A stretch of DNA of 63,327 nt, filler included, from Ionaspis alba (taxonomy: Eukaryota): assembly GCA_964255285.1 (NCBI GenBank). It is 16 parts of 16 records of this genome, joined end to end, with 100 filler letters (N's around TTAATTAATTAA, not from the genome) between each part and the next. Parts side by side here need not be neighbours in the genome. Positions count along the whole stretch, not along the records: positions 51,786 to 55,604 come from CAXUUL010001169.1; 15 more parts are not named here. The stretch is one strand, 5' to 3'. The notes under the pieces were generated by a model. It had not been told where the DNA came from, ran no database searches, and saw nothing but the letters and a program-made list of their open reading frames with translations. This document shows positions 3,928 to 59,972 of the stretch, in pieces. The first letter of the stretch is position 1; the number at the start of each line of letters is the position of its first letter. Both the position numbers and the translations under genes were made by a program.

Positions 3928-4027
3928 NNNNNNNNNNNNNNNNNNNNNNNNNNNNNNNNNNNNNNNNNNNNTTAATTAATTAANNNNNNNNNNNNNNNNN
4001 NNNNNNNNNNNNNNNNNNNNNNNNNNN
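3928..4027. other. Artificial contig linker N44-TTAATTAATTAA-N44 (first of 15)
   Basis: Identical 100-bp spacer at 3928, 7949, 11959, 15962, 19954, 23938, 27919, 31895, 35869, 39842, 43804, 47753, 51686, 55605 and 59475. The core has stops in all six frames, and contig lengths decrease monotonically. Confidence 0.98.
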
Positions 4028-7948: not shown

Positions 7949-8368
7949 NNNNNNNNNNNNNNNNNNNNNNNNNNNNNNNNNNNNNNNNNNNNTTAATTAA
8001 TTAANNNNNNNNNNNNNNNNNNNNNNNNNNNNNNNNNNNNNNNNNNNNGAACAACGTGTTATGTATGCCATATCAAAAGCGATCGAAGGAATAAGCTGTG
8101 GGCGAGCTCTCCAACGGTATCCATCGTCCTTTCGTGACAATTGCCTCTCGTGGATAATTTGGGTCCTTCGCCCGCAGTAGAAACCCGATGGACTTGTTGG
8201 TTCTAAGCATGACGGCGTATATCCTAGCACAGACTGGCTTATAATGGCTTAGTGTGGTTGTCCCTCCATTTGTTTACTTGGAATTTTCAACCACAAATGA
8301 TTTTAGCGGCCTCGGTCGAAGACAACACTTTTTCTAATCCATCTGCTTTTGCTTTGAAGTCAGCAAAC

Positions 8369-51785: not shown

Positions 51786-53241
51786 ATGCCTCGCAAAGGC
51801 TGGATGTAAGCCAAACCCTCCTCATTACTTCGGTGCTCTAGCTGATTCAACCAGCGACAAATCCAAGTCGACAACCTACGCTCTTGTCCACCGCCCACAA
51901 AATGACCCCCAACTCCACGATGCGTCCTCTTCCTCTATGGTCTTCCAGGAGCTTGCTCCAACGCAAGCTCACAAGATCAAAAGCCGGAATGATTTGGAAA
52001 CTGAATTGTTCGGTGGCTCGAGTGTTGGTGGCGACGAAAATCTGCATCTTAGGGACAATGAGGGCGAGGCTGCGGAGTACGGAATCTTTTATGACGACAC
52101 AGAGTATGATTACATGCAACATATGCGAGATCTGAATAGTGGTGATGGGAGTGGAGAAAGTTACTTTGTTGAGGCGCCCGCGAGGAAGCAGAAAGGAAAG
52201 GATAAGATCAGTCTTGAGGATGCCCTACAAGAGGTCAAACTGGAGGATGCCAAGAACAAGGCAGCAGCGAACGAGACTGCTTCTTACCTCCTAGATGACT
52301 CTATGCTACCATCTAAGAATTTAAATAGGACTAGCTACCAAGACCAGCAAGATATTCCAGATGCCCTTGCAGGATTTCAACCAGATATGGATCCACGATT
52401 GCGTGAAGTATTAGAAGCTCTCGAAGACGAAGACTATGTCGATGACGAGGAAGATGTTTTTGGCGAGCTAGTGAAAGACAGAGAGGAGGTTTCCCTTGCC
52501 GAGTTCGAAGAGTTAGGGCTTGACGAGGGGGACACCGAGGACGATCCGGGATGGGAAACAGATGATACCGCCAAGCCGAGCAAAGAATATAAAGATCAAC
52601 CACGTGATATGCCATCAGCTCCTAGTACCAATGGCATGCCAATAAATGAAGGTCCAGACAACGGTGATGGAGATTGGATGGCGGAATTCAGCAAGTTCAA
52701 AAAAGCAACAAAGGTGGCCAAGAAGGACAAGCCAGTTGCGCCTTCAAATGCCGAACTACAGTCGTCGATTATGAGTGGGTCATCATTGGCAGGACGGAAG
52801 AAGAAGCGGAAAGGTGCAATGACCTCCAGCACCGGCTACTCCATGACAAGTTCCTCCCTTTTCCGTACCGAAGGCCTCACCACACTTGATGCACGCTTCG
52901 ACAAGATCGAGGAAGAGTATGCCGAGGATGATGGTATGGAAGAAAATGATGACGATGGAGCGGCATCGGTGATGACGGGGCGGATGTCCACTATTTCTAG
53001 ATCGTCAAACATGTCGAAAATGTCTAATCTGTCAGGTCTGTCAACAACGAGCAGTCAAGCACCAAATCTGATAATGAGGAGTGACTTTGATGGCATCATG
53101 GATGAGTTCTTGGGAGGGTATTCAATGAGTGGCAAAAAGCGGGTCAAGAAGGGTGGCTACCAGAGTGGGTTGGAGCAGTTGGACGAGATCAGGAGAGAGC
53201 TTGGTCCGCCCAGGATTGCTGTGCAGAAAGCTGGCCGATGA
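51786..53241 (+). CDS. ltv1: 40S ribosome biogenesis factor Ltv1; 2 exons
   Basis: [86 protein letters not shown]. Confidence 0.93.
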
Positions 53242-53757
53242 CGAGATATTTCGACAGATTGTTGTGCTTTTGAAGTTATCTGGTCGTTTAGTTGCAGCGT
53301 GCGAAATGGAAGGGCTCATGAGAGCCAAATATACCCCTTTATCATCTCCATGTATCAACTTAGCCAGTCACCGTACATTCAAAAGAGGTTTGGGACCGCG
53401 AATGTGTTATACTCGAGACGTTGCAAATCGAGGCCTACGTCATCCTCTTGATCCAAGACTATATCGTGGGCGGTATTGAAATGATTCTGAGGGCATCACT
53501 CTCGACGGCTGAGAAACTTACGGTTCGATGTCATACATTGCAATTCTTGGCCTTCGTACGAAGGTGGTCATTCATTGGCTAATGCAAAATTGTCCAATGA
53601 AGGCTCTCGGCGTCGTGGCTTTGCATATTCAAGAGGACTGCCTGCAGCAGAGCCCCGTTACTCAGCTGCATCTCTCAGCCTGGTCTTGTATATCACTCCT
53701 ATCAACCAGAAGGCGTCGTTGCAAGCTCCCACTTTCTCGGTCCATTTAAGAGTTACA

Positions 53758-55604
53758 ATGGATCCAGTAACCATCATCGGGACAACAGGCGCTGTTGCAA
53801 ACATCATCGACGTGATATGCAAGACCATCAAATCGCTGCGTGATATCCGTGAAAGATGGAACAGTGCAGACTCGACGATATTCTACCTCATAGCACAGCT
53901 GAATGCCCTTAAAGCAGGACTGAGCAAGATTTCGGAATGGCTCTCGGCTGATCTTCAAGATGTGCCTCAGCATTACCAGCTTGTCATTGATCTCGAAGAG
54001 TCCATCACCTGTTGTCGAATGTTGATCACTACTATGGATGTGCATATCTCCAAGCTCAACTGGAATGCATCGAATGAACTCGAGTTTGAAAGCAGAATCC
54101 GAACTATCTTCGAGGATAAGGCGGGCCAAGATTTTCAGAAACATATTGAGGCACAAATAAGTGCTCTGAATCTGTTATTGACAGCCTGTAGCTGGTGGGA
54201 ACTTGATCTCATAGTATTGTCCAGCATGACTAACGTTACCAACAGCAAAACACTCTCTGAACAACAGAAGTGGCTGGAAACACCAGTCAATCGTCGGGTG
54301 TTTGATCAATCCAAAGACAATTCCTCCTCGCTGTTTGTCCTGCGAGACTCGTCATCTACTCTGAGCAAGTGGACGCAGTCTACTGTGAACTCTTCGAAGC
54401 TATCGAGGGTATTCGTATTTGATCAGGAGTTGATGACCTCCAAGGTTTATCAGCGGCTTTTTCGAGCTTTGTGCAAACGCTCCGTCTGTGGGAAAGAATT
54501 GGAGGGCTCTTTAAATCTCGTGTCTCAAACGAGTCCACGCAACAAAACCATACCGGAAAAGAAGGATTCAGTTCTAAGATCGAAGGCGGTCGACCAGACC
54601 CTCCAAGAGGAGGCAAGACAGATGGGAGAGTACAGATTGGTGATTGTGGGAGGCCCGAGTGGCGGGAAACAATTAATGTTGAGGTTTATGAGATTGAAAA
54701 TTCGGAAATCTTTCACTGCAGAAGAGCTCCAGAACTACCGATCTATCATACAATCTACCCTAGTCGATCTCGTATGCGAATTGGTAGCACTTGGATCTCT
54801 ACATCATGAAGTCAGAGAGCTTTCGCAGTCAATTCCTAAGCCGTCGACACTGGCGGACCTGGTCAACGATAACTTTGCTGTGGTTACGGCAGCTAAGAGC
54901 CTGTGGTATAAGCAGAATGTGCAACAGCTTTTACTCGAGCAGGATATGAGTAGGTATTGGTTGTACCCTTAGTAAGTTTACGAGTTATCCCTGACTTCTG
55001 TAAAGCCTGTTGATGTCTCACAGTCTCTTCAAACACATACGGAGAATTTGTTCTCCAGACTATATACCAGCAAAATTTGACATAGTTCTCTTGCCATCGG
55101 AGAAATTGCCATATGGAACGCAAACAGAAGTTTCAGAACCCGTCGATTTGGATCAATCTAGCCTGGGTGTCTGCGACATCGCTACTGAAGAATCACTACC
55201 AGAAGGGTGGATCTGCCAAGTCGCAGATATCAACTCGATTTTTTATCGTCAAGATAAGCGGATAGATTCTAGTTTTGCCGGAGGACCCACTCACTAAGAA
55301 GCTCGTGAAGAGCTTGATGATGTTTGAACTTGTGGTTAACTCCAAATGGTTTACAAAAATTCAGTGGCTTTGGTTTTCCGCGACGGTCAAAGAATCACAA
55401 GACGGCTTGCTCAGAGCCCAATGGAACAACAGCTCACGAATTATGCCGGGGACAACGACATTAAAAGAGCTGGCAACTATACTTCTTGGCAGTTCAGCCA
55501 GTTCAATCACGCCGATCTTGTGATGAATAAGATTGTATTTGATGCGACGGATTTCGACCTCATCACATTCACCCTGACCATTGTAAAGAACGTCATCATT
55601 AGCT
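53758..55604 (+). pseudogene. HeLo-like N-terminal domain fused to a degenerate class III G-protein alpha domain; frameshifts/stop in the 3' part, truncated at the contig end
   Basis: MDPVTIIGTTGAVANII..IEAQISALNLLL N-terminus. G-alpha-like segments: RSKAVDQTLQEE, RICSPDYIP, SLMMFELVVNSKWF, YAGDNDIKRAGNYTSWQFSQFN, DATD. Introns at 54195-54245 and 54972-55023; lesions at 55239-55265 and 55355-55359. Confidence 0.75.
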
Positions 55605-59474: not shown

Positions 59475-59972
59475 NNNNNNNNNNNNNNNNNNNNNNNNNN
59501 NNNNNNNNNNNNNNNNNNTTAATTAATTAANNNNNNNNNNNNNNNNNNNNNNNNNNNNNNNNNNNNNNNNNNNNCGCAGCGCCCTTGAACAGGCAGGAGA
59601 GTTGTGTTGTTTCTTAGGGGTAATGGCTACTGAGGTTGATGCGTTATGATACCGATTGGCTTCTTTCTTTTCCAGTCTATATTTATTGGCGGTGTGAATA
59701 CCTCTTATATTGAGCCCAACCGTGTATATTGTATCTTCTTTTTACATGGATCGAATACAAGTAGATAGATATGAACTCAATACCCTCATGCAAACATATT
59801 GAAAAAATGTTTAAGAAAAGCATGCATGTTATAACCAATTGCTCATGCCATGCATCCAATACTTCCCACATGATCGTGTTATCCTATGAAACATACCTGA
59901 GCACACTCAAAGCCACTCATCCGAGCAGTCCATTTATGCCTCGATACGAGCCCTGCTAAATCGTATGCACAG

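What the first reader, a model, noticed from the sequence alone, without database searches (positions are those of the whole stretch)
53758..55604. HeLo-like effector domain fused to a catalytically dead G-alpha: candidate decoy/sensor cell-death switch
Seen: the first ~145 codons (MDPVTIIGTTGAVANIIDVICKTIKSL...QLNALKAGL...IEAQISALNLLL) have the hydrophobic first helix and helical-bundle pattern of the N-terminal domains of fungal STAND/NLR proteins. After a linker (FDQELMTSKVYQR), from ~54577, the sequence follows a class III G-alpha (GNA-3/GanB/Gpa2 type) colinearly to its last helix. Every GTPase motif is altered: the P-loop GSGESGKST reads GGPSGGKQL, the switch-I Arg/Thr is lost (DIVLLPSEK), DVGGQ reads DIATE, and NKxD is absent. 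There is no N-terminal myristoylation glycine. Established: HeLo/HeLo-like domains execute membrane-targeting cell death in fungi, and canonical fungal G-alphas are stand-alone ~350-aa proteins. Inference: a duplicated G-alpha was recruited as a pseudo-GTPase sensor or integrated decoy controlling an effector domain, an NLR-like architecture without a NACHT/NB-ARC core. I cannot check whether it is already described.
Basis: partly seen in the sequence, partly recalled or inferred. Interest (0 to 1): 0.85.

Follow-up and report, generated by a model that had tools for sequence, protein, structure and literature searches.

The report
Broken helical-bundle/G-alpha fusion gene in a fungus
This fungal gene joins a helical-bundle domain, of the kind that punctures membranes in fungal and animal cell death, to a G-protein alpha subunit that has lost its GTPase motifs; this copy is broken, but it belongs to a large gene family for which I found no published description.

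Summary
From ATG 53758 a two-intron gene encodes a 145-residue helical bundle and a conserved linker. One continuous exon then runs into a colinear G-alpha whose P-loop, switch I, DxxGQ and NKxD motifs are all altered.

Two things were missed.

1. This copy is damaged. It has a +1 frameshift in a T6 run (55239-55244), an in-frame TAG (55263-55265) at a conserved Tyr, and a -1 frameshift in an A5 run (55355-55359). The contig ends at 55604. Read literally, the product stops at 478 aa.

2. The fusion is not unique. Of the 150 best 50%-identity representatives, 78 carry both the N-module and G-alpha. Named members come from several Pezizomycotina lineages, and many are intact.
- None of 89 fusion proteins keeps all five G motifs, against 43 of 68 stand-alone G-alphas.
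- One clade (the window's, nearest GNA-3-type) is degenerate throughout.
- A second clade keeps the P-loop and TKxD but has almost always lost the catalytic Gln.

The N-domain models as a four/five-helix bundle. It matches MLKL 4HB (Z 10.7) and PF17111 only weakly.

Best reading: a recently disabled member of an MLKL-like family in which an executioner bundle is coupled to a pseudo-GTPase switch. The cell-death role is inferred, not shown. Eight full-text searches found no paper describing the fusion.

The parts
53758..54194 (+). Exon 1: N-terminal helical-bundle domain (aa 1-145), with a hydrophobic, small-residue-rich first helix MDPVTIIGTTGAVANIIDVI
   Evidence: ORF and start. AlphaFold2 pLDDT 84.5, five helices. 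PF17111 E 1.3e-4, below cut-off. VIA-align Z 10.7 to MLKL 4btf_A.
54195..54245 (+). Intron 1 (51 nt; GTGGGA ... CTAAC ... CAG)
   Evidence: Homologues read TACNCKTxSEQK across this point. Removing it gives TACSCKTLSEQQK. P0006 retains an insert at the same place.
54246..54971 (+). Exon 2: conserved linker (DSSSLxVLRDSxS, SKLSxxFxFDxELxxSKVYxR), then the G-alpha alpha-N helix, degenerate P-loop and helical domain, all in one open frame
   Evidence: Pfam G-alpha profile positions 3-129. In the P0003 model the linker forms two further helices (148-179) followed by a disordered stretch.
54649..54675 (+). Degenerate G1/P-loop GGPSGGKQL (canonical GSGESGKST)
54972..55023 (+). Intron 2 (52 nt; GTAAGT ... 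CTGAC ... CACAG)
   Evidence: Splicing gives WLYPYLFKHIRRICSPDYIPAKFDIV, which is colinear without gaps with canonical DSAPYFFEEVTRLAASNYIPTEADVL.
55024..55604 (+). Exon 3: Ras-like half of G-alpha, disrupted, cut by the contig end
55079..55105 (+). Switch I region DIVLLPSEK (catalytic Arg and Mg-Thr lost)
55175..55189 (+). G3 DIATE in place of DVGGQ (catalytic Gln lost)
55239..55244 (+). T6 run holding a +1 frameshift
   Evidence: Frame change from WICQVADINSIF to IVKISG. No indel in the X1 contig.
55263..55265 (+). In-frame TAG at the conserved Tyr of the S-x-Y motif (SEYDQ in canonical G-alpha)
   Evidence: No difference in the X1 contig.
55295..55297 (+). TAA that ends the literal spliced reading frame (478 aa)
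55355..55359 (+). A5 run holding a -1 frameshift
   Evidence: Frame change from NSKWFTK to (N)SVALVFRDGQ
55379..55390 (+). RDGQ at the place of G4 NKxD

Best explanation
**What it is.** The locus is a recently disabled (pseudogenised or truncated) member of a large Pezizomycotina gene family for which I found no published description.

**Family architecture.** An N-terminal module of about 235 residues replaces the lipidated N-terminus of a heterotrimeric G-protein alpha subunit. The module is a four/five-helix bundle of the PF17111 / HeLo-like / MLKL-4HB type, followed by two further helices and a conserved linker. In the window's clade the G-alpha derives from the GNA-3 (group III) type and has lost nucleotide-binding and catalytic motifs. 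In a sister-architecture clade it comes from another G-alpha class, keeps the P-loop and TKxD, and has lost the catalytic Gln.

**Inferred mechanism (not shown).** By analogy with MLKL (4HB, brace, pseudokinase), the G-alpha-like domain would be a slow or dead switch. It would hold the N-terminal bundle inactive until a partner or conformational change releases it. The released bundle would oligomerise and insert its first helix into a membrane, causing either cell death or membrane-anchored signalling.

**This copy.** Two frameshifts and a stop remove the last third of the G-alpha fold. At most a 478-aa truncated product can be made.
For: **Gene structure**
- The fusion is encoded in one exon, flanked by two canonical short introns.

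**Family size**
- 78 of the 150 best representatives carry both modules. Across all 198 proteins held, 90 do.
- Named intact members are Tricladium P0003 (632 aa; Pfam G-alpha 175.7 bits), Cudoniella, Massariosphaeria, Lophiotrema, Amniculicola and Bacidia.
- The ESM Atlas holds a cluster of 94 Ascomycota members.

**Motifs**
- 0 of 89 fusion proteins keep all five G motifs, against 43 of 68 stand-alone G-alphas.
- 4 of 69 aligned keep DxxGQ.
- 20 of 89 keep the P-loop plus [NT]KxD, and only 1 of those has the Gln.

**Trees**
- The window's clade is one side of a branch (SH-aLRT 96) next to GNA-3-type G-alphas.
- The other clade groups with TCATDT-type G-alphas (99).
- One clade for both is rejected (p-AU 8e-5).

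**Conservation**
- In the window's clade the N-module is better conserved than the G-alpha part: median pairwise identity 38% against 21%.

**N-domain fold**
- pLDDT 84.5.
- VIA-align Z 10.7 to MLKL 4HB in N-terminal register, 10.1 to NRG1.1 CC-R, 9.0 to MLA13 CC.
- PF17111 is the only recurrent Pfam match for the N-domain: 20 of 66 members, best E 2.7e-6.

**Lesions**
-. They are present in an independent contig assembly of run X1. The neighbouring LTV1 gene is intact.
Against: - No experiment or RNA evidence exists for any member.
- The HeLo-like assignment is below Pfam's threshold in the window (21.9 bits against 27.2).
- The structural match is no better than matches to unrelated helical bundles: IncA Z 13.1, and the tool's note puts the helical-bundle background at up to about 13. 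Foldseek gave no match with E<=0.001. HET-s HeLo is not among the 50 listed VIA matches.
- No NLR, amyloid motif or HET gene can be seen nearby, because the contig is 3.8 kb.
- The first 400 codons of the window gene are still open, so the locus may not be a dead gene.
- The X1 contigs are probably from the same reads as the window, so the lesions have no truly independent confirmation.
- The two clades were named after the first tree and motif census were seen, which weakens the AU test.
Confidence: 0.55

Rival explanations
1. Unconventional G-alpha, like plant extra-large G proteins. The N-module is only a membrane anchor or scaffold that replaces myristoyl/palmitoyl anchoring. The protein still works in heterotrimeric G-protein signalling through G-beta-gamma, RGS or effectors, largely nucleotide-independently, and has no cell-death role.
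For: - The alpha-N helix that contacts G-beta is retained in all members (RSxxIDxxLxxDSxxLRR).
- One clade keeps the P-loop, switch I and TKxD.
- The Atlas structural search lists a plant 822-aa G-alpha-domain cluster among neighbours (TM 0.42).
- Armaleo et al. 2019 (PMC6652019; abstract, passages and supplement passages seen) report five divergent G-alpha paralogues in Cladonia grayi. One is induced 2-fold in co-culture with the alga, and the authors discuss them as signalling components.
Against: - Switch II, the main G-beta-gamma contact, is degenerate in the window's clade (DIATEESLPEGW).
- The G-alpha part evolves much faster than the N-module (21% against 38% median identity). That is the opposite of what a conserved signalling interface predicts.
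- I could not show that the Cladonia paralogues are this family.
Confidence: 0.25
2. Integrated decoy. The dead G-alpha mimics the host's GNA-3-type G-alpha, so that a toxin or effector that modifies G-alpha triggers the N-terminal executioner.
For: - The architecture is an effector domain plus a non-catalytic copy of a signalling hub.
- The G-alpha part diverges quickly.
- G-alpha was recruited from two classes.
Against: - A decoy should keep the surface of its model. The window's clade has lost switch I and II, and in several members the whole helical domain (P0013, P0017, P0028).
- No effector that targets fungal G-alpha was identified here.
- The second clade retains nucleotide-binding motifs, which points to a switch.
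Confidence: 0.1
3. The lesions are artefacts or one allele of a polymorphic locus, and the organism also has an intact, functional copy.
For: - Both frameshifts sit in homopolymer runs (T6, A5).
- The three reading frames downstream stay open and recognisably homologous, with 83 open codons to the contig end.
- The X1 contigs show two variants at 53605-53758 and after 55543, and six substitutions in the coding part. More than one haplotype or copy is therefore present.
Against: - The X1 contig covering 53729-55481 at depth about 106 has no indel and no change at the TAG.
- A TAG in place of TAY is not a homopolymer error.
- LTV1 on the same contig has no frame break over 484 codons.
Confidence: 0.15

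Closest known systems
MLKL (animal necroptosis executioner; plant MLKLs)
   Same: Both have an N-terminal four-helix bundle, connecting helices, and then a catalytically dead enzyme fold that acts as the regulatory switch. The window's N-domain model aligns to MLKL 4HB from its N-terminus (4btf_A Z 10.7, rmsd 2.6, 100 residues; 6ux8_A Z 9.8; AtMLKL3 Z 8.3). The P0003 model has two extra helices after the bundle, where MLKL has its brace.
   Different: The regulatory domain is a G-alpha-like pseudo-GTPase, not a pseudokinase. No RIPK-like activator is known. The structural Z is within the background for helical bundles.
Fungal HeLo / HeLo-like (HELL, PF17111) proteins: HET-S, HELLP, and N-termini of fungal NLRs
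   Same: The domain sits at the N-terminus with a hydrophobic first helix. There are recurrent sub-threshold PF17111 matches. UniRef names several members 'Fungal N-terminal domain-containing protein'.
   Different: There is no C-terminal amyloid motif and no NACHT/NB-ARC. The partner is G-alpha. In a 2025 review of fungal regulated cell death (PMC12881547), a term search found HELL fused to kinase/pseudokinase domains but 0 occurrences of 'GTPase', 'G protein' or 'G-protein'.
Fungal group III G-alpha (GNA-3 / GanB / Gpa2 type)
   Same: The G-alpha part is colinear from the alpha-N helix to alpha5. The least-diverged family members, P0010 and P0008, still read KQMKIIHQNGYT, DVGGQRSE and RFNQVNR as P0019 does. 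The tree places the clade next to these G-alphas.
   Different: The lipidation motif MGxxxS is replaced by a module of about 235 aa. All five G motifs are altered in the window.
Plant extra-large G proteins (XLG)
   Same: Both have a long N-terminal extension fused to a G-alpha-like domain with degenerate catalytic residues. XLG's immunity and cell-death links are recalled from memory; the review PMC13185490 was seen only as a search listing.
   Different: The N-terminal extension is unrelated (recalled: Cys-rich/NLS region), and the origin is independent.
Divergent 'MAG C-like' G-alpha paralogues of lichen fungi (Armaleo et al. 2019, PMC6652019)
   Same: These are extra, divergent G-alpha paralogues reported in Cladonia grayi and Endocarpon pusillum. 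The window's closest named relative is from a lichen-fungus MAG (Loekoesia, P0002), and another family member is from Bacidia gigantensis (P0013).
   Different: The passages I saw mention neither an N-terminal domain nor lost GTPase motifs. The paralogues are assigned to the MAG C clade, not to GNA-3 type. Identity with this family was not tested because I had no sequences.

Membership tests
G-alpha (Pfam PF00503) | Profile match above Pfam's gathering score | tested here: inconclusive
   The window's literal pieces score 28.0, 17.4 and 17.4 bits (cut-off 48.8) but are colinear over profile positions 3-253. The read-through model scores 140 bits on my own G-alpha HMM, positions 2-328. Homologue P0003 scores 175.7 bits and P0057 328 bits.
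G-alpha (Pfam PF00503) | All-helical domain inserted between G1 and G2 | tested here: met
   The window has about 130 residues between the P-loop and switch I, aligned to the helical domain of P0019. The P0003 model shows helices 278-414 there.
G-alpha (Pfam PF00503) | G1-G5 nucleotide-binding and catalytic motifs | tested here: not met
   GGPSGGKQL, DIVLLPSEK, DIATE, RDGQ. 0 of 89 fusion proteins keep all five.
G-alpha (Pfam PF00503) | N-terminal Gly/Cys lipidation site | tested here: not met
   The G-alpha part starts at about residue 245, behind the N-module.
HeLo-like / Helo_like_N (PF17111, now named PigL_N), 4HB-MLKL superfamily | Profile match above the gathering score | tested here: not met
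   21.9 bits against 27.2 in the window. 20 of 66 N-module proteins match at E<=0.01, best 2.7e-6. P0017 carries PF17111 in the precomputed annotation.
HeLo-like / Helo_like_N (PF17111, now named PigL_N), 4HB-MLKL superfamily | Four-helix-bundle fold like MLKL 4HB / HeLo | tested here: inconclusive
   Model pLDDT 84.5. Z 10.7 to MLKL, but up to 13.1 to unrelated bundles. Foldseek gave nothing at E<=0.001.
HeLo-like / Helo_like_N (PF17111, now named PigL_N), 4HB-MLKL superfamily | Extreme N-terminal hydrophobic helix at the protein's start | tested here: met
   MDPVTIIGTTGAVANIIDVI, conserved across the family as MADPIxIIGxxGAIxNIxDVV.
HeLo-like / Helo_like_N (PF17111, now named PigL_N), 4HB-MLKL superfamily | Membrane targeting and cell-death activity | not testable with these tools
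   Needs expression and liposome assays.
Fungal NLR (STAND) | NACHT or NB-ARC NOD module plus repeats | tested here: not met
   No such Pfam hit in the window protein. 4 of 79 scanned members give weak NACHT hits (best E 0.0015), which I take to be P-loop matches.
MLKL | C-terminal (pseudo)kinase domain | tested here: not met
   No kinase match. This is an analogy only.

The most novel reading that the evidence does not exclude
Filamentous ascomycetes possess a previously unrecognised class of cell-death or immune switch built like MLKL, but with a G-alpha-derived pseudo-GTPase as the regulatory module. It was assembled at least twice from different G-alpha classes. It may couple, or guard, heterotrimeric G-protein signalling to a membrane-permeabilising four-helix bundle without any NLR.
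Probability: 0.2. Interest if true: 0.85.

Novelty: new variant of a known kind. Interest (0 to 1): 0.6.

Why it matters
HeLo/HELL/MLKL bundles are the executioners of fungal, plant and animal regulated necrosis. They are known to be coupled to amyloid motifs, NOD modules or (pseudo)kinases. A widespread coupling to G-alpha would add a new type of controller. It would also link the best-studied fungal sensing pathway to cell death or non-self responses.

For G-protein biology, the family is a natural series running from near-canonical to fully degenerate G-alpha, useful for asking what a G-alpha fold does without GTP hydrolysis. It is a fungal parallel to plant XLGs. It may also explain the 'extra, divergent G-alpha paralogues' noted in lichen and Aspergillus genome papers.

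The window's own copy adds little beyond showing that members decay.

Tried and rejected
**Introns as an explanation for the frame changes.**
- The only GT...AG pair that restores frame around the TAG is 25 nt long (55248-55272), too short for a spliceosomal intron.
- A 51-nt candidate (55248-55298) is out of phase (worked out by hand). Both were rejected.

**Searches that were unavailable or empty.**
- The window's own genome is not held, so no paralogue search was possible.
- Earlier findings of this scan returned nothing by sequence or by words.
- The third word-index search, with the N-domain and 'longer' lengths, gave only 4 proteins, all already known.
- phmmer of the N-domain against PDB sequences gave one chance-level hit (E 0.57).

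**Searches that did not discriminate.**
- PDB sequence searches with P0089 and P0010 both hit G-alpha-i/t best, so they do not separate G-alpha classes.
- Atlas search with P0034, leaving out G-alpha clusters, gave no usable feature hit.
- The Atlas could not take a part of a protein.
- The Pfam scan of alignment A3 exceeded the size limit. A4 was used instead.

**Expression.**
- No RNA holder is listed among the sequencing runs, so nothing can be said on expression.
- Run X3 laid nothing. Run X2 laid two short pieces at depth 2-3.

**Literature.** These were full-text searches of the held library only.
- 'helo-like' + 'g-alpha': 0 papers.
- 'domain of STAND proteins' + 'G-protein alpha': 0 papers.
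- Searches for PF17111, Helo_like_N, and mixed terms found no paper describing the fusion.
- Term searches within PMC9815663 and PMC12881547 found 0 mentions of G-alpha, G protein or GTPase.
- PMC5307856 mentions extra G-alpha-domain orthologue groups in three Aspergillus strains without detail (passage seen).
- Subscription journals are not covered.

**Not done.**
- dN/dS was not done, because no coding DNA of homologues could be fetched.
Full report
**1. What the window is and where the gene lies**

The 63,327-base window is not one stretch of chromosome. It is 16 contigs of about 3.9 kb joined by N44-TTAATTAATTAA-N44 spacers. The finding lies on the contig at 51786-55604. Upstream on the same strand is an intact LTV1 gene (51787-53238; Pfam LTV, E 5e-110, one open frame of 484 codons). 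No whole genome is held for the window.

**2. Gene model**

- The gene starts at ATG 53758. All relatives begin M(A)DP at this point, while the automatic model P0001 starts 61 codons upstream.
- Exon 1 is 53758-54194.
- Intron 1 is 54195-54245 (51 nt, GTGGGA...CTAAC...CAG). Removing it gives TACSCKTLSEQQK, which matches the family's TACNCKTxSEQK.
- Exon 2 is 54246-54971.
- Intron 2 is 54972-55023 (52 nt, GTAAGT...CTGAC...CACAG). Removing it gives WLYPYLFKHIRRICSPDYIPAKFDIV, colinear without gaps with canonical DSAPYFFEEVTRLAASNYIPTEADVL.
- Exon 2 alone runs, in one open frame, from the second half of the N-terminal module through the G-alpha alpha-N helix, P-loop and helical domain. The fusion is therefore not an artefact of gene calling.

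**3. The copy is broken**

Exon 3 (55024 onward) needs three repairs to stay colinear with G-alpha:

- a +1 shift inside a T6 run (55239-55244);
- an in-frame TAG (55263-55265) exactly where all relatives have the Tyr of the S-x-Y motif (SEYDQ in canonical G-alpha);
- a -1 shift inside an A5 run (55355-55359).

I looked for introns that could explain these and found none of plausible length and phase. Read literally, the spliced frame ends at TAA 55295-55297 after 478 codons.

Read through with X at the three breaks, the model is 582 residues. It scores 304 bits on my N-module HMM and 140 bits on my G-alpha HMM (positions 2-328). About 10 residues are lost at the contig end.

A separate contig assembly of public run X1 (94% of the sampled words; word depth about 106) covers 53729-55481. 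It has six substitutions, no indel, and no change at the TAG. This run is probably the window's own data, so it excludes an assembler slip but is not independent sequencing. The same run shows two variants upstream of the ATG (13 differences in 53605-53758) and an alternative continuation after 55543. More than one haplotype or copy therefore exists.

**4. The observation itself**

Pfam sees G-alpha in three successive frames (profile positions 3-129, 144-212, 222-253) and PF17111 at residues 7-103. All of these are below the gathering scores.

**5. Relatives**

Word-index searches found named, intact fusions:

- Tricladium varicosporioides (P0003, 632 aa; Pfam G-alpha 175.7 bits, PF17111 E 1.5e-3);
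- Cudoniella acicularis (three proteins);
- Trichoglossum hirsutum;
- Massariosphaeria phaeospora;
- Lophiotrema nucula (precomputed PF00503 + PF17111);
- Amniculicola, Pyrenochaeta, Paraphoma;
- Bacidia gigantensis;
- a Loekoesia MAG, the closest at 44% identity overall and 52% in the N-domain.

UniRef calls several of them 'Fungal N-terminal domain-containing protein'.

A profile of 15 fusions was searched against 1.84 billion representatives and gave 12,985 hits at E<=0.001, mostly ordinary G-alphas. Classified with my own HMMs:

| Set | N-module + G-alpha | N-module only | G-alpha only |
|---|---|---|---|
| 150 best representatives | 78 | 37 | 35 |
| All 198 proteins held | 90 | 38 | 70 |

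Many of the N-module-only proteins are fragments.

Other points from the relatives:

- The ESM Atlas puts P0017 in a 94-member Ascomycota cluster named after GNA-3.
- Three members lie on contigs barely longer than their coding sequence and lack the intron-1 insert: P0010 (588 aa on 1,919 nt), P0012 (572 aa on 1,976 nt) and P0005 (521 aa on 1,667 nt). This fits transcript assemblies, but I could not check it.

**6. State of the G-alpha part across the family**

I aligned the proteins to canonical P0019 and scored each motif.

| Motif | Fusion proteins: intact / aligned |
|---|---|
| Walker A (G1) | 25 / 73 |
| Switch I Arg + Thr (G2) | 18 / 72 |
| DxxGQ (G3) | 4 / 69 |
| [NT]KxD (G4) | 25 / 74 |
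| G5 Ala | 3 / 39 |

- None of the 89 fusion proteins keeps all five motifs, against 43 of 68 stand-alone G-alphas.
- Twenty fusions keep both the P-loop and [NT]KxD, typically as GxSESGKST ... DVGG[STAEV]RSE ... TKxD. Only one of these has the catalytic Gln.
- These twenty belong to a second clade of longer proteins (about 600-750 aa).

The trees support two origins:

- In an IQ-TREE (LG+C20 PMSF, quick) of 49 G-alpha domains, the window's clade (16 rows) is one side of a branch (SH-aLRT 96). It sits next to GNA-3-type G-alphas (98 for the clade plus two of them).
- The second clade groups with TCATDT-type (G-alpha-i-like) sequences (99).
- Forcing all fusions into one clade costs 75.8 log-likelihood units (p-AU 8e-5). 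The groups were named after the first FastTree, so this is a post hoc test.
- The same N-module has therefore been joined to G-alpha of two classes, either by two fusions or by a domain swap.

Within the window's clade the N-module is far better conserved than the G-alpha part (median pairwise identity 38% against 21%). In the other clade the figures are 33% against 29%. Several members of the window's clade have lost the helical domain altogether (P0013, P0017, P0028).

**7. The N-terminal module**

- AlphaFold2 on the window's first 145 residues, with 111 aligned relatives, gives a confident bundle (pLDDT 84.5, pTM 0.80).
- Foldseek against the PDB finds nothing at E<=0.001.
- VIA-align against 48,161 representatives lists MLKL 4HB (4btf_A Z 10.7, rmsd 2.6, 100 residues, in N-terminal register; 6ux8_A Z 9.8), NRG1.1 CC-R (10.1), Rx CC (9.6), MLA13 CC (9.0) and AtMLKL3 (8.3).
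- It also lists unrelated bundles at equal or higher Z (IncA 13.1). The tool warns that Z under about 13 is background for helical bundles.
- PF17111 is the only Pfam family that recurs on the N-module: 20 of the 66 N-module proteins among 79 scanned, best E 2.7e-6.
- Passages of Wojciechowski et al. [quoted passage not shown]
- The full-length P0003 model (pLDDT 82.4, pTM 0.58) adds two helices (148-179) after the bundle, then a disordered stretch (178-201), then the conserved FxFDxELxxSKVY helix, then a normal G-alpha fold. Inter-domain packing is not reliable at this pTM.

I therefore treat 'HeLo-like / MLKL-type bundle' as likely but not established.

**8. Other partners of the N-module (leads only)**

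- A PH-like domain (P0080, P0169).
- An upstream HET domain (P0093).
- An Atlas cluster of 77 Ascomycota proteins with Ras (96%) and Roc (69%) domains, in which 12% carry PF17111 (score 0.87, below the tool's 0.9 bar).
- P0034 has no sequence-detectable G-alpha, but its Atlas model still resembles GTPase folds weakly.

Taken together, these suggest the module is habitually coupled to GTPase-type switches.

**9. How it most likely works**

- Shown: the architecture, its spread, the motif states, the two G-alpha origins, and the damage in this copy.
- Inferred: the G-alpha-like domain is a regulatory switch. It would be GTP-binding but hydrolysis-deficient in one clade and nucleotide-independent in the window's clade. 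It would control release of a membrane-active N-terminal bundle, as the pseudokinase does in MLKL.
- Rivals: an XLG-like unconventional G-alpha in which the N-module only anchors the protein; an integrated decoy; and, for this locus, an artefact or null allele.

The window's copy can at best make a 478-aa protein that lacks the beta4-alpha5 third of the Ras-like domain. The reading frames beyond the lesions are still open and homologous, so the damage is recent.

**10. Known or new**

- Sequences of the family are in public databases with automatic names.
- Eight full-text searches found no paper that describes the fusion.
- Term searches in the fungal NLR effector survey (PMC9815663) and in the 2025 review of fungal regulated cell death (PMC12881547) found no occurrence of G-alpha, G protein or GTPase. 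The review does mention HELL fused to kinase/pseudokinase domains.
- Armaleo et al. 2019 (PMC6652019; abstract, passages and supplement passages) report five divergent G-alpha paralogues in Cladonia grayi and Endocarpon pusillum. They do not mention an N-terminal domain in what I saw, and I could not test whether these are the same family.
- de Vries et al. 2017 (PMC5307856; one passage) note extra G-alpha-domain orthologue groups in three Aspergillus strains.

I rate the family a new variant of known kinds (HeLo-like executioner proteins; unconventional G-alphas). I rate the window's locus a decayed member of it.

Noticed in passing
window 1-63327 (spacers at 3928-4027, 7949-8048... 59475-59574): The window is 16 contigs of about 3.9 kb in descending length, joined by N44-TTAATTAATTAA-N44 spacers. 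Features cannot be read across these joints.
   Followed up: yes
window 51787-53238 (+): An intact LTV1 (low-temperature viability / ribosome biogenesis) gene lies upstream. It is one open frame of 484 codons, Pfam LTV E 5e-110. It served as a within-contig control for sequence quality.
   Followed up: partly
window 53605-53758, 53851-53889, 54866, 55452-55543: Contigs of run X1 show a second variant. There are 13 differences just upstream of the ATG, 5 substitutions within 40 bases of exon 1, one in exon 2, and a different continuation after 55543. This suggests two haplotypes or copies in the sample.
   Followed up: no
proteins P0094, P0135, P0142, P0174, P0149, P0137 (representative library): There are tandem G-alpha/G-alpha proteins, and one 2,766-aa protein with 9-12 partial G-alpha repeats (Pfam G-alpha in 12 stretches). 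Organisms are unknown.
   Followed up: no
protein P0093 (1050 aa): HET domain (52-234, E 1e-29), then the N-module (635-860), then a G-alpha remnant. This may be a real three-part protein or two merged neighbouring genes.
   Followed up: no
proteins P0080, P0169; ESM Atlas cluster of 77 members: The same N-module is followed by PH-like domains. An Ascomycota cluster has Ras/Roc GTPase domains, with 12% of members carrying PF17111 (score 0.87, a lead only).
   Followed up: no
protein P0006 (JGI, 263 aa): It keeps an in-frame insert (SWLVCRLASDCIGRHTDLISRTH) exactly where the window has intron 1, so the intron position is conserved.
   Followed up: partly
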